From: Azotosporobacter soli
GTDB lineage: Bacteria > Bacillota > Negativicutes > SG130
Direction: 5' to 3'
DNA: 32,000 bases
Assembly (NCBI RefSeq): GCF_030542965.1
Contig: NZ_JAUAOA010000002.1
Coordinates: forward strand, 349,744-381,743
Shown: positions 894 to 30,621 of the stretch, one piece after another
How the letters are laid out: each line of letters opens with the position of its first letter
How positions within the stretch are numbered: the stretch's first letter is position 1
Program-made: the position numbers and the translations under genes
The notes under the pieces: generated by a model
Seen by the model: only the letters and a program-made list of their open reading frames with translations
Told to the model about the DNA's origin: nothing
Database searches by the model: none

Positions 894-1982
894 TTAGCGT
901 GCCGCCTTACGCACCAACCAGGCACCGATCGAAACACCGATGATATTCGGCAGCCAGGCCGCCAGCGGCGCGGGAACCGCGCCCCCCTGACCGAGCGCGG
1001 TCGTCACCGTCATGATCGTGTAGTAGGCAAAAATAATGACGACGCTGAGGCCAAGACCGATCGAAGAGCTCGAACGGTTCGGCTGCAGACCGAGCGGCGT
1101 ACCGATCAGCGCGAAAACGAACGACGCCATCGGAATGGCCAGCCGTTGGTGCAGCTCGACCTCCTGCGTATCTGCCTTGACGTATTCGCTCTTCAGCACC
1201 TGGATGTGCTGTTTCAATTCGCGAATCGTCATCTCTTCCGGTTTCTTCTGCTCGCGCGAAATCGCAGCCGGCGTTTTATCGACCGGCATATTTTGCTTGT
1301 CAAACACTAACGTCCGGTTAATCGTGCCGAGCGAATCCATGTCATGAATCACGCCGTTGTACATCGTCCAATGATTATCCTGCCAGATGGCGCGCTCTGC
1401 GCTTTCGACGCGAACCAGACGGTCCCTGTCAAATTCCTGCATCGACACCGCATACATCGTACTGGTCTCTTCCTCATATTTTTTCGCATAGGTTAAACGC
1501 TGAATCTCACCGCCACGCACATCTTTGATCACAATGTGTTCCTGCGATTTTGGCGTTGTATTGTGTTCAATCTGGTTGCGCACAATATCATTATAGGCCG
1601 CATTCGACTGCGGCACGACGTTTTCACTGAAAAAGACCGAAAAGACGCTGACCGCGAACGCCACCGCGAAGACCGGCGCAGCCAAACGAAAAAAACTGAT
1701 GCCGCCGGAGCGCATCGCGGTAATTTCGTTCGAACCAGAAAGACGGCCGAATGCTAACAGTGAAGCTAAGAGCATCGACATCGGAAACGTCAGGACGATG
1801 ATGCTCGGCAGGCTGTAGACGAATAATTTGATGACCGCGCCGAGTTCCGCTCCGTATTTGGTCACATACTGTGCAATACGAAACAAAGTACTAGTACCGA
1901 TAAAAACGCTGGAAAAGGCGCAAATTCCGAAGAGGAACGGGCCTAATAATTCTTTGACAATATATTTGTCCAATATGCGCAT
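894..1982 (-). CDS. LPS export ABC transporter permease, LptF/LptG (YjgP/YjgQ) family
   Basis: 362-aa ORF with N-terminus MRILDKYIVKELLGPFLFGICAF. It has multiple TM segments flanking a large hydrophilic loop, as in YjgP/YjgQ permeases. It starts 11 nt downstream of lptB. Only one such gene is present in the window. Confidence 0.85.
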   Translation of the reverse strand: MRILDKYIVKELLGPFLFGICAFSSVFIGTSTLFRIAQYVTKYGAELGAVIKLFVYSLPSIIVLTFPMSMLLASLLAFGRLSGSNEITAMRSGGISFFRLAAPVFAVAFAVSVFSVFFSENVVPQSNAAYNDIVRNQIEHNTTPKSQEHIVIKDVRGGEIQRLTYAKKYEEETSTMYAVSMQEFDRDRLVRVESAERAIWQDNHWTMYNGVIHDMDSLGTINRTLVFDKQNMPVDKTPAAISREQKKPEEMTIRELKQHIQVLKSEYVKADTQEVELHQRLAIPMASFVFALIGTPLGLQPNRSSSSIGLGLSVVIIFAYYTIMTVTTALGQGGAVPAPLAAWLPNIIGVSIGAWLVRKAAR

Positions 1983-1992
1983 CGCTGTTCTC

Positions 1993-2712
1993 CTACAAGC
2001 TAAAGTTTTCCCCTAGATAAAATTTCTTGGCAATCTCGCTGCTGGCGATCGTTTCGGCGTCGCCTTCGATGAGGATCTTTCCTTCGTTCAAGATATAGGC
2101 CCGATCAACAATGCTCAAGGTCTCGCGCACATTGTGGTCGGTAATCAATACGCCGATGCCGCGCTGTTTCAAGTAGGCAATGATCGCCTGAATGTCAGCC
2201 ACCGCAATCGGATCGACGCCGGCAAACGGTTCGTCAAGCAAAATGAAATAGGGGTCTGTGGCTAGAGAACGTGCGATCTCAAGACGTCTACGCTCGCCGC
2301 CCGACAGTTGCGAGCCCAGGCGTTTTCTCACATGCGCGATGTGAAATTCGTCGAGCAGACTCTCTACTTTAGTGCGCCGTGCGGCCAACGGCATGTCGGT
2401 CGTTTCAAGGATCGCCATCAGGTTATCCTCGACGGAAAGTTTGCGAAAGACCGAAGGTTCCTGCGGCAAGTAGCCGATGCCAAAGCGCGAACGCTTGTAC
2501 ATTGGCATTTGCGTGACGTCTTCATCATTGATGATGATGCGCCCCTGGTTCGGCTGCTCCAAGCCGACGATCATGTAAAAGCTGGTCGTCTTGCCCGCGC
2601 CATTCGGCCCAAGCAAGCCGACGATCTCGCCGCGGTTAACCCGCAGGCTGACGCCGTCGACCACATTGCGCCCTTTATATGTCTTTACCAGTTCAAGGGT
2701 TTCTATATACAT
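1993..2712 (-). CDS. lptB: LPS export ABC transporter ATP-binding protein LptB
   Basis: Walker [13 protein letters not shown] signature LSGGERRR, Walker B ILLDEP, and a C-terminal FYLGENF tail typical of LptB. The ORF-track start at 2727 has no SD. ATG at 2712 has GAGGAA (2725-2720) 7 nt upstream, so I use 2712. Confidence 0.92.
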
Positions 2713-2741
2713 ACCTGTATTCCTCATTTAATTCAGTATTT

Positions 2742-2874
2742 TGGCTCGTGGCTCGTGGCTCGTGGCTCGTGGCTCGTGGCTCGTGGCTCGTGGCTCGTGG
2801 CTCGTGGCTCGTGGCTCGTGGCTCGTGGCTCGTGGCTCGTGGCTCGTGGCTCGTGGCTCGTGGCTCGTGGCTCG
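2742..2874. repeat. Perfect tandem heptanucleotide microsatellite, (TGGCTCG)x19 on plus / (CGAGCCA)x19 on the gene strand
   Basis: Counted directly: units start at 2742 + 7k, with 19 uninterrupted identical copies (133 nt). The tract lies between the lptA stop (2928) and the lptB start (2712). Confidence 0.97.
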
Positions 2875-2880
2875 TCAGGC

Positions 2881-2889
2881 ATTATACCA
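2881..2889 (-). promoter_or_regulatory. Extended -10 promoter-like element TGgTATAAT facing lptB
   Basis: The minus strand reads ...aacggctcaTGgTATAATgcctg immediately before the first heptamer unit. The best -35 at 17-nt spacing is only AGTACA (3/6). A start site would fall at the edge of the repeat tract. Confidence 0.3.
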
Positions 2890-2927
2890 TGAGCCGTTTG
2901 CCATGTACTATGAGCTATTTCCCGCCC

Positions 2928-3644
2928 CTACTCGTCCTTCGGTATCACGACGAGCTTGCTGCGACCTTGCGCATCCATCGCCTTGTCATCCATGTAGATC
3001 GTCAGGCTGTTGCCGGTCAGCGTGTTGCCGTCCTGTATCGCTCTGGCATTGCCGGTCAATACGGCGCGGCCTTCGCCTTTTTTACCGTAATAGACCGCAT
3101 GGTCGGAAACGGCATCGAGTTTGCGCGTCTCGCTGACGACATGGACGTTGCCGTCAATGACGACACGTTCTTCTTGTGTAAACGCTTCCAACCGATTGCC
3201 GGTAATCACGCCGTCAGCGGTGTCCATTCGCGCCCAGCCTTCGACCAGCGCATAGCCTTTGTCAGCATAGTAATCAATTTTTGGTCCGGCAAGCCGGTTT
3301 TCACCTTTCGTCAAAATCGGCTGCCCTGCCGCAATCAGGTGATTATTATCATAGCCGCGTACTTCTTCCGCAATTAACGTGGCATCTTCTTTGACAACTT
3401 TAACGCCGCCATGAATGTACGTTTCCTGCGTTTTGACGTTATATTCGGCCTGCGCGCCGGTCATCATCGATTTTCCTTGCACCAGCTTGACATTGCCAGT
3501 CGCGATCATGACGCCGCGCACCGAGTCGTATTCAATCGTATCGGCAACCAAGTCAATCGGCTCATTGCCCGCTGCCGCTGCGCCGCCCGATAAGCCAATC
3601 AGCAAACAAACCGCAAGTAGCGCGCTTTTCCACTGTCTTCTCAT
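2928..3644 (-). CDS. lptA: Periplasmic LPS transport protein, LptA/OstA-N family
   Basis: Signal peptide MRRQWKSALLAVCLLIGLSGGAAAAG, followed by OstA-like beta-jellyroll sequence (ADTIEYDSVRGVMIATGNVKLVQG..., repeated GN-V motifs). The start overlaps the lptC stop (ATGA at 3644-3641). At 238 aa it is longer than the E. coli LptA as I recall it. Confidence 0.8.
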   Translation of the reverse strand: MRRQWKSALLAVCLLIGLSGGAAAAGNEPIDLVADTIEYDSVRGVMIATGNVKLVQGKSMMTGAQAEYNVKTQETYIHGGVKVVKEDATLIAEEVRGYDNNHLIAAGQPILTKGENRLAGPKIDYYADKGYALVEGWARMDTADGVITGNRLEAFTQEERVVIDGNVHVVSETRKLDAVSDHAVYYGKKGEGRAVLTGNARAIQDGNTLTGNSLTIYMDDKAMDAQGRSKLVVIPKDE

Positions 3645-6695: not shown

Positions 6696-6793
6696 TTTCA
6701 ACACGAAGGCGCGAAAAATTGAAAGACACGAAGAAATTTAGATTTTAAAATTCCTTCCGCTCTTTCTTTTTTCTTCCTTTCTTCGTGTTAAAA
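6696..6793. repeat. About 100-nt imperfect hairpin element, copy A (kdsA-kdsD gap)
   Basis: AACACGAAG (6700-6708) pairs with CTTCGTGTT (6781-6789). Internal purine-rich left arm segments GAAAAA and GAAAGA pair with TTTTTC and TCTTTC on the right arm. It begins about 11 nt after the kdsA TAG stop. Confidence 0.7.
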
Positions 6794-7672: not shown

Positions 7673-7772
7673 TTCAACACGAAGAATCGAAAAACGAAAG
7701 AGGAAAAGATTTTATTCGTATAAAAAAGAACTTCTTCCTTTCTTTATTTTCTCTTCCCTTCTTCGTGTTGAA
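7673..7772. repeat. About 100-nt imperfect hairpin element, copy B (kdsB-kdsA gap)
   Basis: TTCAACACGAAG (7673-7684) is a perfect 12-bp inverted repeat with CTTCGTGTTGAA (7761-7772). The purine-rich left arm and pyrimidine-rich right arm match copy A. It begins about 12 nt after the kdsB TAG stop. Confidence 0.75.
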
Positions 7773-13901: not shown

Positions 13902-13931
13902 CGATTTCACCTCTTTTTGTTGGCTGTTAGC

Positions 13932-14004
13932 AGAACGGCTATTGGCTCGTGACTCGGAGCCCGAAGCTCAAAGCCGCCCCGCCCGTCCTGCCATGAGCCG
14001 TTCT
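13932..14004. repeat. GC-rich stem-loop region carrying single-copy versions of the motifs that flank or seed the heptamer tract
   Basis: AGAACGGCT (13932-13940) and AGCCGTTCT (13996-14004) form a perfect 9-bp inverted repeat. An inner hairpin GGCTCG/CGGAGCC spans 13944-13961. The region contains TTGGCTCGTG (13942-13951) and CCATGAGCCGTT (13991-14002), both identical to sequences at 2741-2750 and 2887-2898. Confidence 0.5.
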
Positions 14005-14017
14005 CCCTCTAGAAGAA

Positions 14018-14047
14018 ACAGAAGGCAGGTTTGCAACCTGCCGTCTT
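14018..14047 (-). terminator. Terminator-like hairpin after lpxI
   Basis: The minus strand reads GGCAGGT-tgcaa-ACCTGCC followed by TTCTGTTTCTTCT. The 7-bp stem begins 7 nt after the lpxI stop. Confidence 0.45.
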
Positions 14048-14048
14048 G

Positions 14049-21308: not shown

Positions 21309-21782
21309 TTATTTACCTGTGATCTTTTTCAGCACTTCTTCGGTGATATCTTGGCCGCCGTAAATGACATTGCTTTTATCAACAACCACAGTCAGGCCCT
21401 TCGCATCGGAAACGGCTTTGATCGCGCCATCGATCTTGTCATATACCGGCGCTACGAGTTCCTGGTGTTTTGCTTGCAACCGCTGTTGAATCTGTTGATA
21501 GTATTCTTGTTTTTCTTTGTCGTTCATCGCAGCGCTTTTTGCTTCAAAATCTTTTTTCGCTTGCTCAACTTCGGCTTTCATTGCTTCGTCTGCTTTAGCC
21601 ATATCCGGATGCTGCTGCACCAGCATTTGGTAGTTGACTACGCCAACGCTGGAATTACTACCGGCTGCTGCTGCATAACCTGTTCCGCTTTGCGAGAGGG
21701 CCAAGCCGACAATGCCTAAAACAAAAAACATCGCTACCGCTAACGACACCATTTTAACTTGCTTCTTATCAATTTTCATCAT
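21309..21782 (-). CDS. OmpH/Skp-family periplasmic chaperone
   Basis: ATG at 21782 has GAAGGAG 8 nt upstream (the ORF track extends to 21884 across the upstream stop). Signal peptide is MMKIDKKQVKMVSLAVAMFFVLGIVGLALSQSG. The rest follows the OmpH pattern (VGVVNYQMLVQQHPDMAKADEAMKAEVEQAKKDF ... KGLTVVVDKSNVIYGGQDITEEVLKKI). Confidence 0.8.
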   Translation of the reverse strand: MMKIDKKQVKMVSLAVAMFFVLGIVGLALSQSGTGYAAAAGSNSSVGVVNYQMLVQQHPDMAKADEAMKAEVEQAKKDFEAKSAAMNDKEKQEYYQQIQQRLQAKHQELVAPVYDKIDGAIKAVSDAKGLTVVVDKSNVIYGGQDITEEVLKKITGK

Positions 21783-21822
21783 GTTGAAAACTCCTTCTTT
21801 CCCTAACCAAATTTCTTTTTCC

Positions 21823-21851
21823 ATTATAGCAGGCGTGTTTTGGCAATTCAA
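21823..21851 (-). promoter_or_regulatory. Sigma-70-type promoter TTGAAT-17-TGcTATAAT upstream of the OmpH/Skp-lpxD block
   Basis: On the minus strand, TTGAAT is at 21851-21846, the 17-nt spacer follows, and TATAAT is at 21828-21823 preceded by TGc (extended -10). It starts 6 nt after the stop of the 423-aa gene and lies about 40 nt upstream of the skp ATG. Confidence 0.55.
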
Positions 21852-21856
21852 GGCTT

Positions 21857-23128
21857 TTATAAGACGCCAATCAGCCTGAGCCAATTTTCCTGCTTCGTGA
21901 ACACATATTCTACACTCAAAAATTCATGCAGCCGGTAGCGCAATCCCATTTCATAATCGCTGTTCTTAGGGTAGCGCTCTAAACGCAGTTGCCAACTATC
22001 GCTCAGATTTTGCCGCAGCCACCATTTCCCCTGCCTGTCGGAAAGCAGATATTGAAAACCAATATCCGTTTCCCGGCCAAAGTGATGGCTGACGCCGCCG
22101 CTGAATTTCCAAGTGAACGTAGTCGGATAAAAATCAACTTCGCCAAACAATTCCTCTTGTTTGTTCATCATTCGTCCGGCATGAAGACGCGCCGATGTGT
22201 TGTTCTCTTTGCGTCCCATATCGAGGTAGCCTTCAGCATTAATCTTGTAGCCGTCCGTTTTTGCCGTCAAATAAACATCGACCAGACTGCCTGGCTGAAG
22301 TTCGATCTGATACTGCAGATTATAACGCTTTGTCAGCGGCGCCTGCTCCGCTTTTTTCAACAGTCGCTGGACAAAATAATCGCGGTGCCGCGCAACCCAG
22401 CCCACCGGCAAGTTGCGCCAACTCGTAATTTCCTGCGCCAGTACCGGTTTCAAATCGAGCAGCAGCAAATTCGGCAGATTGGGCGAACGGATACTGATGC
22501 GGCTATCCTGCACCAATTGACCATTGGGAACCAACGTTATTTTGACGACGCTATGCGTTCCTGACGCAAGTTCTACTCCCAGCGTATATTCCGGCAATTG
22601 CAGCGCCGCACGATCCCTCAGCTCCGTCTTCGCAACTCCGATCGCCCAGTCTTCGCTGTCGACAGGCAGACCGACAAACAGATTACGCATGCCTTCCGTC
22701 AGTCCCGCCAAATCTTTCTCCAGCAAAGGTTGCAGTTCTTGCGGCAGGTTGCCGTAATCGAATTGCACATCAACTTGTTCGACGAGATCGCCCCACGGTG
22801 TGACCTGCATTCTGACCTGCATCTGACGTCCAGGTACAAGCTCAACCCGCTCGACTTCATAACCGAAGAGGACGCGCGTAAAGACTTCCTGCAAGACACG
22901 TTCATACTGTCCTTGCCGTTGCCTGATTTCTTCAACATTCTTGCCACTCAGCATTTGTCGCGTCACGGTAGCCAAGCTGTTTTCCAGCCGCGCTTGCAGC
23001 GCCGTCGCCAACGGATTGGCAGATGTCACCGCCACTTGAATATTCTCAACTCTCTCAATGCTTTGTCCCTGCACCGTTGGACAGCCAAACATTAGCAAGA
23101 GCAAGAGCACCATCAGCCGTTTAGTCAC
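21857..23128 (-). CDS. Uncharacterised secreted protein: three 90-residue alpha/beta repeat modules plus a beta-rich C-terminal domain
   Basis: GTG start has GGAGG 7 nt upstream. Signal sequence is MTKRLMVLLLLLMFGCPTVQG (possible lipobox FGC). The motif (V/I)EL-x-(P/S)G recurs at residues 95-100, 185-190 and 275-280. The last 130 aa or so contain alternating-pattern strands (FTWKFSGGVSHHF, DIGFQYLLS, WQLRLERY, YEMGLRYRL, LSVEYVF). Confidence 0.7.
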   Translation of the reverse strand: MTKRLMVLLLLLMFGCPTVQGQSIERVENIQVAVTSANPLATALQARLENSLATVTRQMLSGKNVEEIRQRQGQYERVLQEVFTRVLFGYEVERVELVPGRQMQVRMQVTPWGDLVEQVDVQFDYGNLPQELQPLLEKDLAGLTEGMRNLFVGLPVDSEDWAIGVAKTELRDRAALQLPEYTLGVELASGTHSVVKITLVPNGQLVQDSRISIRSPNLPNLLLLDLKPVLAQEITSWRNLPVGWVARHRDYFVQRLLKKAEQAPLTKRYNLQYQIELQPGSLVDVYLTAKTDGYKINAEGYLDMGRKENNTSARLHAGRMMNKQEELFGEVDFYPTTFTWKFSGGVSHHFGRETDIGFQYLLSDRQGKWWLRQNLSDSWQLRLERYPKNSDYEMGLRYRLHEFLSVEYVFTKQENWLRLIGVL

Positions 23129-30477: not shown

Positions 30478-30575
30478 CGGTTTCCTCCTGAAGGGTATCA
30501 GGTATCATATTCTACGCGAAGGAACCCTTTCCTGCCATAGAGCTCGAATGTTCATAAAGCCGTAAGAATTGCAGG

Positions 30576-30612
30576 ATAAAAGAAAAAGCCGCGGATTTCT
30601 CCGCAGCTTTTC
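30576..30612 (-). terminator. Rho-independent terminator after tolC
   Basis: The minus strand reads AAAGCTGCGGA-gaaa-TCCGCGGCTTT (one G.U pair) followed by TTCTTTTAT. It lies 10 nt after the tolC stop. Confidence 0.6.
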
Positions 30613-30621
30613 ACCGATTGC

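What the first reader, a model, noticed from the sequence alone, without database searches (positions are those of the whole stretch)
2728..2927. Perfect 19x heptanucleotide microsatellite forming the leader or inter-cistronic spacer in front of lptB
Nineteen uninterrupted identical copies of TGGCTCG (2742-2874; CGAGCCA on the gene strand) fill most of the 215-nt gap between the lptA stop and the lptB ATG. There are no decayed copies at either edge, which suggests a recent or actively maintained tract. The unit length is not a multiple of 3 and the tract is non-coding on the gene strand. Immediately upstream in the direction of transcription is an extended -10 element, TGgTATAAT (2889-2881). 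If that element is active, the tract would make up almost the whole 5' leader of an lptB-lptF/G transcript. If not, it is a long spacer inside an lptC-lptA-lptB message. Perfect short-unit tracts of this length are the classical substrate for slipped-strand mispairing in contingency loci. Those usually lie inside ORFs or between -35 and -10 elements. I cannot match a leader-located heptamer tract before the essential LPS-export ATPase to any described mechanism. The tract has no obvious self-complementarity, so as RNA it would be an unstructured C/A/G-rich platform. That could bind a protein or sRNA, or tune translational coupling by its length.
Basis: partly seen in the sequence, partly recalled or inferred. 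Interest (0 to 1): 0.72.

Follow-up and report, generated by a model that had tools for sequence, protein, structure and literature searches.

The report
Expanded heptamer repeat ahead of lptB
A perfect 19-copy 7-base repeat really does sit in the untranslated gap before an essential LPS-export gene of the soil bacterium Azotosporobacter soli, but it is a fast-evolving, slippage-prone repeat of a kind already known in bacteria, and it probably has at most a tuning effect on expression.

Summary
(TGGCTCG)19.1 is perfect at window 2742-2875 and fills 62% of the 215-nt lptA-lptB gap. The organism is Azotosporobacter soli (Negativicutes).

The tract is lineage-specific. Five relatives have lptA-lptB gaps of 22-253 nt (four sequences could be read) and none of those read has it. 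It belongs to a small module: GGCTSATGG, an extended -10 (TGnTAYAAT), 5 nt, then (NGAGCCA)n. The same module sits upstream of lpxB in the sister species, with a perfect 10.3 copies of AGAGCCA. In A. soli that lpxB copy survives only as a decayed period-7 relic that has lost the -10 box. So these arrays arise, expand and decay between sister species, and the lptB copy looks like a duplicate of the lpxB promoter and leader.

As RNA the tract is exceptionally unstructured (z = +4.3). This differs from the one well-studied leader heptamer, H. influenzae hmw, which needs a hairpin.

The unit itself is not special: three composition-matched control heptamers are equally common in viral contigs. Heptamers are already known as the commonest long-SSR class in bacteria.

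Verdict: a new member of a known kind. A selected copy-number rheostat on LptB2FG is possible (about 20%) but untested. One caveat: 134 nt equals 127 + 7, so 19 copies may be a floor set by the assembler.

The parts
2742..2875 (-). Perfect heptanucleotide array, (CGAGCCA)19.1 on the gene strand and TGGCTCG on the + strand. It is U-free as RNA.
   Evidence: TRF gives 100% matches and score 268. There are 19 two-unit matches against 0.38 expected. The RNA is unstructured.
2881..2889 (-). Extended -10-like element TGGTATAAT. The hexamer is 2886-2881, followed by 5 nt (GCCTG, 2880-2876), and the array then starts at A2875, which is the likely TSS region.
   Evidence: It is one of only 2 TGnTATAAT sites in both strands of the window. 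The sister module has the same geometry: TGTTACAAT, then GTTTG, then the array. There is no -35, and the two-hexamer scanner does not call it.
2887..2898 (-). 5' flank motif AACGGCTCATGG, shared exactly with the lpxI-lpxB gap. Its reverse complement is an imperfect copy (8 of 9) of about 1.3 repeat units.
   Evidence: There are exactly two perfect copies in the window, both intergenic and on the gene strand, plus one 1-mismatch hit. Expected count is 0.20.
2713..2741 (-). Retained ancestral 3' end of the spacer, containing the lptB SD GAGGA (2725-2721) upstream of ATG 2712.
   Evidence: Homology to the sister species resumes 17 nt before the ATG. See also the alignment of relatives.
2928..3644 (-). 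OstA/LptA-like gene upstream of the gap.
   Evidence: NCBIfam TIGR03002 and TIGR04409 give partial hits. Homologues are named LptA/OstA.
1993..2712 (-). lptB (LPS export ABC ATPase), the first gene downstream of the tract. A single lptF/G-like gene follows after 10 nt at 894-1982.
   Evidence: TIGR04406 at 373.8 bits, above the 240 cut-off. The protein is 100% identical in the sister species.
13919..13974 (-). Decayed heptamer array in the lpxI-lpxB gap: GCTTTGA GCTTCGG GCTCCGA GTCACGA GCCAATA GCCGTTC TGCTAAC AGCCAAC. It is orthologous to the sister's perfect (AGAGCCA)10.3 array and is now part of a stable hairpin.
   Evidence: Period-7 autocorrelation is 0.49, reached by 0 of 10,000 shuffles. 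It is the only other period-7 region in the window. See the alignments. The gap folds with z = -4.5.
13991..14002 (-). Second copy of AACGGCTCATGG, the 5' end of the module in the lpxI-lpxB gap. No -10 box follows it here.
14024..14042 (-). Terminator-like hairpin after lpxI, conserved in four lineages. It implies that a promoter must lie in the lpxI-lpxB gap.
   Evidence: The terminator scan calls it in the window and in L164. It is conserved in L165 and L166.

Best explanation
The tract is a genuine, recently expanded heptanucleotide simple-sequence repeat, of the long SSR class with 5-11-nt units.

Origin (inferred). It grew by strand slippage from a proto-repeat at the very start of a promoter-proximal leader. 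The founding module is GGCTSATGG, then TGnTAYAAT, 5 nt, then (NGAGCCA)n. It belonged to the lpxB promoter and leader in the Azotosporobacter ancestor. In A. soli a copy of it replaced the older lptA-lptB spacer.

Transcription (inferred). The array is transcribed, most likely from the TGGTATAAT box, with a start at about A2875. It forms nearly all of a roughly 160-nt, U-free leader of lptB-lptFG that is almost free of structure.

Effect (inferred). The effect is passive and quantitative. The array is a single-stranded spacer of variable length that leaves the SD open and uncouples lptB-lptFG from lptC-lptA. Copy number drifts by slippage, possibly promoted by transcription. The cell tolerates this and it is not an ON/OFF switch. 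Any tuning of expression is incidental.

Shown here: the sequence, its purity, the replacement of the spacer, the paralogous and orthologous copies, the predicted lack of RNA structure, and the fact that the unit is not special.

Inferred, not shown: promoter activity, the TSS, the direction of copying, and the neutrality of the tract.
For: - The array is perfect and has sharp edges.
- The spacer is non-homologous to the sister species from the lptA stop to 17 nt before the lptB ATG, while the flanking genes are about 89% identical at the nucleotide level.
- Relatives have lptA-lptB gaps of 22, 144, 153, 187 and 253 nt. The four that could be read carry other inserts and no heptamers.
- The sister lpxI-lpxB gap has a terminator, then GGCTGATGG, TGTTACAAT, GTTTG, and (AAGAGCC)10.3 at 100% purity.
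- The orthologous gap in the window keeps the 12-mer and a decayed period-7 relic.
- The more distant L166 has the terminator and CTGTTCTAAC but no array, and L165 has none either.
- The leader RNA is less structured than all 200 shuffles, z = +4.29. The sister's leader is also unstructured.
- Control heptameric triplets occur 9, 11 and 8 times in viral contigs, against 10 for CGAGCCA.
- Period 7 is the commonest period that is not a multiple of 3 in 847 kb of fetched loci, even without the searched unit, and those units are diverse.
- In other genomes the same-unit arrays sit in mixed intergenic contexts with unrelated flanks.
- Literature: heptamers are the most abundant long SSRs, which has been attributed to polymerase slippage. 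Orthologous arrays in Xanthomonas vary in length and sequence between close species, and no regulatory role was found there (PMC4679880, PMC4692102).
Against: - Two perfect arrays sit in the same orientation, right after a -10 box and 8-17 nt before the SD of essential LPS genes. That could reflect selection rather than tolerance.
- 100% purity over 19 units needs either a very recent origin or very frequent slippage.
- The array that lost its -10 box is the one that decayed. This fits function or transcription-dependent maintenance as well as it fits neutrality.
- There are no transcript data, population data or reporter data.
- Promoter activity rests on a -10 match with no -35.
Confidence: 0.6

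Rival explanations
1. Selected copy-number rheostat. The array is a contingency-type tuner of LptB2FG dosage, and its lpxB counterpart tunes lipid A synthesis. Slippage creates subpopulations with different leader lengths and therefore different mRNA stability or translation, as with hmw (ATCTTTC)n or uspA2 (AGAT)n.
For: - The array sits in a leader between a -10 box and the SD.
- The same geometry occurs at a second LPS gene in the sister species.
- The arrays are perfectly pure.
- There are precedents for 5'-UTR SSR rheostats (PMC12721329; uspA2 as cited in PMC4679880).
Against: - The target is an essential housekeeping machine, not a dispensable surface antigen (my own knowledge of Lpt).
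- The hmw mechanism needs a long hairpin, and none is predicted here.
- The lpxB array in A. soli was allowed to decay.
- The lptB array is absent from every relative whose gap could be read.
- This is a free-living soil bacterium, and in such organisms 5-11-nt LSSRs are thought to reflect expansion bias (Mrazek 2007, via PMC4679880).
- No population data exist.
Confidence: 0.2
2. Multivalent RNA platform. The U-free (GAG-N4)n leader is bound by an oligomeric RNA-binding protein (TRAP/HutP-like logic, triplets at a fixed spacing) or by an sRNA, and this co-regulates translation of lpxB and lptB.
For: - The GAGCCA core is identical in the two perfect arrays, and only the seventh base differs.
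- Both arrays end just upstream of an SD.
- The RNA is single-stranded.
Against: - Slippage alone explains why the units are identical.
- The decayed copy in A. soli does not preserve GAG.
- No candidate binding protein could be examined.
- The same unit is no commoner than the control heptamers.
- There are no Rfam matches even at E <= 1.
Confidence: 0.05
3. Polarity element. The untranslated, unstructured tract, which is richer in C than G, acts as a Rho loading (rut-like) site. It ends read-through from lptC-lptA, so lptB-lptFG depends on the internal promoter.
For: The unit has 3 C and 2 G and no U. The tract is 133 nt of unstructured, untranslated RNA with a CC dinucleotide every 7 nt (sequence).
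Against: - The sister's array (AGAGCCA) is not C-rich.
- Transcripts from the adjacent -10 box would carry the same site and be attenuated as well.
- Whether this organism has Rho, and how active it is, is unknown.
- There are no data.
Confidence: 0.05
4. Assembly product. Either the tract is not present in the organism, or, more plausibly, its length is an assembler's minimal traversal of a de Bruijn loop and the true tract is longer.
For: - The periodic run is 134 nt, which equals 127 + 7. That is exactly one pass round a period-7 loop at k = 127, the largest k in a widely used assembler (my own knowledge).
- The A. soli protein record comes from a 404-kb contig, which suggests a draft assembly.
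- Others report contigs breaking inside heptamer arrays (PMC4679880).
Against: - The flanks are unique and join cleanly to lptA and lptB.
- A related perfect array lies at an orthologous module in the sister genome, on a 3.75-Mb contig whose name is in long-read-assembler style.
- A decayed relic in the window itself shows that such arrays are native to this lineage.
- The resemblance to the Nextera adapter ...CCGAGCCCACGAGAC (my own knowledge) is only partial, and no adapter flanks are present.
- Complete absence of the tract is therefore very unlikely. Only the count is in doubt, and I put the chance that 19 is an underestimate at roughly 30%.
Confidence: 0.08
5. Small ORF. The tract encodes a 49-residue repeat peptide MPDEP(RATSHEP)n...KY (2882..2733, minus strand). 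This would be a leader peptide whose translation influences lptB.
For: The frame is open from the ATG at 2882 to a TGA 20 nt before the lptB ATG.
Against: - The ATG lies inside the -10 hexamer, so it would be missing from transcripts started there.
- No SD lies upstream of it.
- A change of one unit shifts the frame.
- The sister's array has no equivalent ORF context.
- Any 7-nt repeat without stop codons is open in all three frames.
Confidence: 0.02

Closest known systems
Long simple sequence repeats with 5-11-nt units, especially intergenic heptameric SSRs (Mrazek, Guo & Shah 2007, PMC1895974, as summarised in PMC4679880 and PMC4692102; Xanthomonas GGGAATC and Nostoc GGGGAYT arrays, PMC4692102)
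   Same: - A tandem heptamer array in non-coding DNA of a free-living bacterium.
- Perfect long arrays occur inside operons; Nostoc has 26x GGGGATT between pecE and pecF.
- Orthologous arrays differ in length and sequence between closely related species.
- No unit-specific function is evident.
- Heptamers are the dominant period; in my own fetched loci, period 7 is the top period that is not a multiple of 3.
   Different: - The unit is different: CGAGCCA has no G3+ runs, so it has no G-quadruplex potential of the Xanthomonas/Nostoc kind.
- Only two copies of the module can be seen, because only 32 kb is available.
- The array starts exactly 5 nt after a -10 box and was apparently copied together with it.
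Haemophilus influenzae hmw1A/hmw2A (ATCTTTC)n 5'-UTR phase-variable SSR (PMC12721329; PMC2424069)
   Same: - A heptanucleotide SSR between a promoter and a start codon.
- It is transcribed as part of the leader.
- Its length is expected to change by slippage.
- In hmw, transcription is needed for the repeat number to change. This fits the pattern here, where both perfect arrays have a -10 box and the decayed array has lost it.
   Different: - hmw needs a long hairpin between about 10 repeats and a G-rich arm, plus RNase III cleavage. The leader here is predicted to be structure-free (z = +4.29), with only a 9-nt imperfect complement in the 5' flank.
- The hmw target is a dispensable adhesin in a host-adapted pathogen. 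The target here is an essential LPS exporter in a soil anaerobe.
- No expression or population data exist for this tract.
Dispersed heptamer families: Beggiatoaceae/cyanobacterial TAACTGA repeats and cyanobacterial STRR heptamers (PMC4679880)
   Same: - Direct heptamer repeats on the sense strand a few nucleotides upstream of start codons, including those of essential genes.
- A scattered phylogenetic distribution.
- A proposed role as single-stranded RNA sites near the RBS.
   Different: - Those families have tens to hundreds of loci per genome and usually 2-6 copies per set. Here there are two loci in 32 kb and 19 copies.
- Related heptamers are rare in Beggiatoa, which suggests unit specificity there. 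My controls show no specificity for CGAGCCA.
Moraxella catarrhalis uspA2 (AGAT)n 5'-UTR repeat (Attia & Hansen 2006, as cited in PMC4679880)
   Same: An SSR in a 5'-UTR whose copy number (6-23) varies between strains and sets the expression level, acting as a rheostat rather than a switch.
   Different: The unit is a tetranucleotide, the gene encodes a surface virulence protein, and the effect has been shown by experiment.

Membership tests
Long SSR with 5-11-nt unit (heptameric intergenic SSR) | Head-to-tail iterations of one short unit, far longer than chance allows | tested here: met
   19.1 copies at 100% identity. There are 19 two-unit matches against 0.38 expected.
Long SSR with 5-11-nt unit (heptameric intergenic SSR) | Non-coding location | tested here: met
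   The tract lies between the lptA stop at 2928 and the lptB ATG at 2712. The only ORF through it lacks an SD and starts inside the -10 box.
Long SSR with 5-11-nt unit (heptameric intergenic SSR) | Length or sequence differs between close relatives (slippage dynamics) | tested here: met
   Between species the counts are 19 vs 0 copies at lptA-lptB, and a decayed relic vs 10.3 perfect copies at lpxI-lpxB. Variation within the species could not be tested.
Long SSR with 5-11-nt unit (heptameric intergenic SSR) | The unit sequence is not required to be special; there is a general bias towards heptamer expansion | tested here: met
   Composition-matched control heptamers give 9, 11 and 8 stretches against 10 in viral contigs. 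There are 133 other period-7 arrays with diverse units in the fetched loci.
SSR-mediated phase-variable contingency locus | High-frequency, reversible change of copy number within a population | not testable with these tools
   No second assembly or reads of A. soli could be found.
SSR-mediated phase-variable contingency locus | The SSR is placed where its length changes expression: in an ORF, between -35 and -10, or in the 5'-UTR | tested here: inconclusive
   The tract is downstream of a -10-like box and upstream of the SD. The TSS has not been mapped, and the scanner calls no promoter.
SSR-mediated phase-variable contingency locus | It controls a dispensable, environment-facing trait (surface antigen, restriction-modification system, adhesin) | tested here: not met
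   The downstream genes are lptB and lptF/G. They form the core LPS export ABC transporter, which is essential in model diderm bacteria (my own knowledge).
hmw-type 5'-UTR heptamer element (H. influenzae) | A heptanucleotide SSR transcribed within the 5'-UTR | tested here: inconclusive
   The geometry fits: a -10 box, 5 nt, then the array. There are no transcript data.
hmw-type 5'-UTR heptamer element (H. influenzae) | The repeats pair with a complementary arm to form a long, stable hairpin | tested here: not met
   The whole gap folds with z = +1.96. The putative leader has MFE -12.4 kcal/mol and z = +4.29, and its centroid is empty. Only a 9-nt flank complement matching 8 of 9 exists.
hmw-type 5'-UTR heptamer element (H. 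influenzae) | RNase III processing, and expression inversely proportional to repeat number | not testable with these tools
   This requires experiments.
Dispersed heptamer family (TAACTGA / STRR type) | The same heptamer repeated at many loci of one genome | tested here: inconclusive
   There are two loci, one perfect and one decayed, in the 32-kb window. The rest of the genome was not available.
Dispersed heptamer family (TAACTGA / STRR type) | The unit sequence is that of a described family | tested here: not met
   The unit CGAGCCA/TGGCTCG differs from TAACTGA, GGGAATC, GGGGAYT and the STRR units described in PMC4679880 and PMC4692102.
G-quadruplex-forming heptamer repeats (Xanthomonas/Nostoc) | G-runs of at least 3 in each unit | tested here: not met
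   The + strand unit TGGCTCG has only GG. The predicted DNA structure is a weak slipped hairpin.

The most novel reading that the evidence does not exclude
A lineage-specific 'promoter plus heptamer-leader' cassette (GGCTSATGG, TGnTAYAAT, 5 nt, (NGAGCCA)n) has been duplicated from lpxB to lptB in Azotosporobacter. It works as a slippage-driven, transcription-maintained rheostat on two essential steps of LPS biogenesis. That would give a diderm Firmicute heritable but reversible variation in outer-membrane assembly capacity, and it would do so through an unstructured leader, a mechanism different from the hairpin and RNase III route of hmw.
Probability: 0.2. Interest if true: 0.6.

Novelty: new member of a known kind. 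Interest (0 to 1): 0.38.

Why it matters
If the tract is only a tolerated expansion, its value is descriptive. In one small clade it documents the full life cycle of a bacterial heptamer SSR: birth in a leader, expansion to 10-19 perfect copies, copying to a second gene, and decay into a hairpin. It also shows that the spacer before an essential LPS exporter can be completely rewritten between species that are about 89% identical.

If copy number does tune lptB-lptFG, it would be a rare case of an SSR rheostat on an essential envelope machine in a non-pathogen. It would also work through an unstructured leader rather than a hairpin.

In practice, the tract is an obvious strain-typing marker and a likely trouble spot for short-read assembly.

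Tried and rejected
1. Special pan-bacterial heptamer family. (CGAGCCA)3 occurs in at least 120 stretches across many phyla, often at several loci per genome and even in low-GC genomes. I rejected the idea that this unit is special. Three composition-matched permuted heptamers are equally frequent in viral contigs, the flanks are unrelated, and the contexts are mixed.
2. Shared mobile element carrying the array across taxa. Rejected, because the flanks are not conserved outside Azotosporobacter.
3. Known RNA family or riboswitch in either gap. There are no Rfam matches at gathering thresholds or at E <= 1.
4. Canonical two-hexamer sigma-70 promoter. The scanner calls none in any of the gaps. 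The promoter argument rests on the extended -10 alone.
5. Sigma-54-type reading of TGGCA...: the -12 element does not fit (inspection only).
6. Population or strain variation. Exact-protein look-ups for LptA, LptFG and both LptB starts, and for the A. soli LpxB record, found no second assembly. Two metagenome scans, one with the tract-RBS junction and one with the module pattern, found nothing.
7. hmw-like hairpin. It is not predicted.
8. Coding repeat or leader peptide. Unlikely.
9. Adapter contamination. The resemblance to the Nextera sequence is partial only, the flanks are native, and homologous arrays exist in the sister genome.
10. Recombination breakpoint explaining why LptB is identical in the two species. 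Rejected, because nucleotide identity is about 89% on both sides of the gap.
Full report
**Observation.** The window carries one outstanding tandem repeat. It lies at 2742-2875 with period 7, 19.1 copies, 100% matches, no indels and unit TGGCTCG. A two-unit probe with up to two mismatches matches 19 times, against 0.38 expected from shuffles. The sequence on either side shows no decayed units.

All genes around it are on the minus strand and form a lipid A / Kdo / LPS-export cluster. It includes kdsB, kdsA, kdsD, kdsC, lpxL, lptC, an OstA/LptA-like gene (2928-3644), lptB (1993-2712) and one lptF/G-like permease (894-1982). Further upstream lie lpxK, waaA, msbA, lpxB, lpxI, lpxA, fabZ and lpxC. 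The lptB start is ATG 2712 with the SD GAGGA at 2725-2721. The gap is therefore 215 nt, and the tract takes up 62% of it.

**Organism.** The window's LpxB is 100% identical to a protein that NCBI names as Azotosporobacter soli. This species belongs to Negativicutes, Sporomusaceae. The nearest other genome is a metagenome-derived 3.75-Mb contig (ERZ21831019 ctg34058l; loci L001 and L164). It is about 89% identical to the window at the nucleotide level on both sides of the gap, and it encodes an identical LptB.

**The spacer is hypervariable and the tract is lineage-specific.** Homology between the window and the sister genome stops exactly at the lptA stop codon and resumes 17 nt before the lptB ATG. 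The orthologous gap has these lengths:
- 22 nt in a more distant relative (L005);
- 144 nt in L004;
- 153 nt in a contig whose DNA could not be fetched;
- 187 nt in L002/L003;
- 253 nt in the sister (L001).

The four gaps that could be read contain other inserts, mostly palindromic elements built on octamers, and none has the heptamer. The 19-copy tract was therefore gained, or expanded, after A. soli split from its sister.

**A second copy of the same module, and its ortholog.**
- The window has one other region with a period-7 signal, the lpxI-lpxB gap.
- After a terminator-like hairpin (14024-14042) this gap carries the same 12-mer, AACGGCTCATGG, that abuts the lptB tract. There are two exact copies in the window, against 0.2 expected.
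- Next comes a run of decayed heptamers: GCTTTGA GCTTCGG GCTCCGA GTCACGA GCCAATA GCCGTTC and so on.
- The period-7 autocorrelation of this run is 0.49, and 0 of 10,000 shuffles reach it. The run now forms part of a stable hairpin (z = -4.5).
- In the sister genome the orthologous gap reads: terminator, GGGAGAGTGGCTGATGG, AAC, TGTTACAAT, GTTTG, then (AAGAGCC)10.3 at 100% purity, then ATAAAAAAGAGG and the lpxB ATG.
- The geometry matches the lptB tract exactly. In the window it is TGG-TATAAT (2886-2881), GCCTG, then the array from A2875. In the sister it is TGT-TACAAT (1399-1404), GTTTG, then the array from A1410.
- A more distant lineage (L166) keeps the terminator and a related CTGTTCTAAC box but has no array. 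L165 has no array either.

My reading of this (inference) runs as follows. The box is the lpxB promoter, because a promoter is needed after the conserved terminator. A heptamer array arose at the start of that leader in the Azotosporobacter ancestor. It is pure in the sister and has decayed in A. soli, where the -10 box is also gone. A copy of the box plus array came to replace the lptA-lptB spacer in A. soli. The gap-1 copy shares the exact 12-mer and the C-type unit with A. soli's own gap 2. This points to an intragenomic origin.

**Is the -10 box a promoter?**
- For: TGnTATAAT occurs only twice in 64 kb, both times on the gene strand.
- For: it is homologous to a box at the same distance from the array in the sister, in a place where a promoter is expected.
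- For: by my inspection of the L002 gap sequence, that relative has a TGnTAAAAT about 45 nt upstream of the lptB ATG.
- Against: there is no -35, the two-hexamer scanner calls nothing, and there are no transcript data.

I put promoter activity at roughly 60-65%. If the box is active, transcription starts within the first bases of the array.

**Physical properties.**
- As RNA, the putative leader (2876-2700) has an MFE of only -12.4 kcal/mol over 177 nt. Its z-score is +4.29 and all 200 shuffles fold better.
- The whole gap gives z = +1.96.
- The sister's leader is also unstructured.
- The unit contains no U.
- As DNA, the TGGCTCG strand can form a weak slipped hairpin (-32.9 kcal/mol, z = -8.2). 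The CGAGCCA strand folds much less well (-15.8 kcal/mol, z = -2.2). This strand asymmetry is compatible with slippage intermediates.
- No Rfam family matches either gap, even at E <= 1.

These come from Acidobacteriota, Halomonadaceae, Amphritea, Longimicrobiales, Actinomycetota, Megasphaera, Dialister, Synergistales and others, often at several loci per genome. The longest other perfect run retrieved has 15.6 copies.

That looked like a pan-bacterial family, but three tests argue against it:
- The flanks are unrelated.
- The gene contexts are mixed.
- Three composition-matched permuted heptamers occur 9, 11 and 8 times in viral contigs, against 10 for the real unit.

In the 847 kb fetched, period 7 is the commonest period that is not a multiple of 3, even after removing the searched unit. 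There are 133 such arrays, against 49 with period 8, and their units are diverse. This agrees with the literature. [quoted passage not shown] Heptamer arrays in Xanthomonas and Nostoc sit between the same genes in related species but differ in length and sequence, and no regulatory role was found for them (PMC4692102).

**Mechanism.** My best-supported account, at about 0.6 confidence, is this. The tract is a slippage-generated heptamer SSR at the start of a promoter-proximal leader. It is transcribed as a long, single-stranded, U-free spacer that leaves the lptB SD accessible and uncouples lptB-lptFG from lptC-lptA. Its length drifts, and any effect on expression is quantitative and incidental.

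Both perfect arrays have a -10 box, and the decayed array has lost its box. With only three cases this is anecdotal. It does fit the experimental finding that transcription is required for changes in heptamer number at hmw (PMC12721329, section 28).

The main rival, at about 0.2, is a selected rheostat on LptB2FG dosage. The hmw mechanism itself is not met, because no hairpin is predicted. The minor rivals are a protein or sRNA binding platform, a Rho-loading site, a leader peptide, and assembly error.

**Assembly caveat.** The periodic run is 134 nt, which equals 127 + 7. That is exactly the length produced by one traversal of a period-7 loop at k = 127. The A. soli record appears to be a draft, with a 404-kb contig. 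I cannot see reads. I regard the tract's existence as secure, because related arrays occur in the sister genome and a relic lies in the window itself. The count of 19 may nevertheless be a lower bound, and I put the chance of that at about 30% (inference).

**Comparison and verdict.** The tract meets every defining feature of the long-SSR, heptameric intergenic repeat class that I could test. It fails the tested features of an hmw-type element (no hairpin) and of a classical contingency locus (the target is essential). The remaining features of those two families could not be tested.

I classify the tract as a new member of a known kind. The mildly interesting twist is that it travels with a promoter-like box and sits in front of two essential LPS genes in sister species. 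Interest is 0.38.

Noticed in passing
window 6701-6784, 7676-7764 and 775-805; L001 2763-2940; L004 229-263, 949-1005 and 3229-3290; L165 472-502: A family of palindromic, REP/MITE-like elements built from octamer repeats occupies many intergenic gaps of the LPS cluster across this clade. The units are ACACGAAG/TCTTCGTG and CACAAAGG/CTTTGTG. In the sister species and in L004 one of these elements fills the lptA-lptB gap.
   Followed up: partly
window 13911-14048 (minus strand): The lpxI-lpxB gap folds into a significantly stable structure (-61 kcal/mol, z = -4.5), made partly from decayed heptamer units. A former SSR appears to have become a hairpin directly upstream of the lpxB RBS.
   Followed up: partly
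window 30478-30621 (minus strand): The gap upstream of the 1383-aa gene contains GAGCTCTATGGCAGGAAAGGG. This resembles AACGGCTCATGGCAGGACGGG in the lpxI-lpxB gap at 16 of 21 positions. It may be a third relic of the module's 5' motif, or a shared regulatory site.
   Followed up: no
window 894-1982 (minus strand): Only one LptF/G-like permease gene follows lptB. It scores just under the curated cut-offs for both LptG (238.6 against 240) and LptF. This suggests a homodimeric LptB2(F/G)2 transporter in this diderm Firmicute.
   Followed up: no
window 1993-2712 compared with L001 3001-3720: LptB is 100% identical at the protein level between two genomes that are only about 89% identical at the nucleotide level, whereas LptA is 95% identical. 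LptB is under very strong purifying selection.
   Followed up: partly
window 21823-21831 (minus strand): This is the only other TGnTATAAT in the window. It has a good -35 (TTGAAT, 17-nt spacer) and lies inside the 5' end of the mechanically listed ORF 21309-21884. That ORF's real start is probably further downstream.
   Followed up: no
L032, L054, L098, L106, L111, L112, L121 (one Acidobacteriota MAG); L019, L021, L024, L038, L064 (one gammaproteobacterial MAG); L011, L016, L029, L057, L074 (one Longimicrobiales MAG); L008, L034, L079 (Megasphaera sp.): Some genomes carry (CGAGCCA)n, with n of at least 3, at three to seven separate loci. These are often mosaics with one-mismatch variants such as CGAACCA, CGAGCTA, CGAGTCA and CTAGCCA. 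My controls, which address overall frequency only, do not explain why the same unit recurs within one genome.
   Followed up: partly
L010 5572-5627 and L047 7713-7737 (Megasphaera): In Megasphaera the heptamer arrays lie immediately upstream of terminator-like hairpins with A and T runs. That is a 3'-UTR-like context, unlike the leader context in Azotosporobacter.
   Followed up: no
window 2742-2875: The periodic run is 134 nt, which equals 127 + 7. That is the length expected from a single traversal of a period-7 de Bruijn loop at k = 127, so the true copy number may be larger.
   Followed up: no
window 2733-2882 (minus strand): A 49-codon ORF, MPDEP(RATSHEP)n...KY, runs through the tract. 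Its ATG lies within the -10 hexamer and it has no SD.
   Followed up: yes
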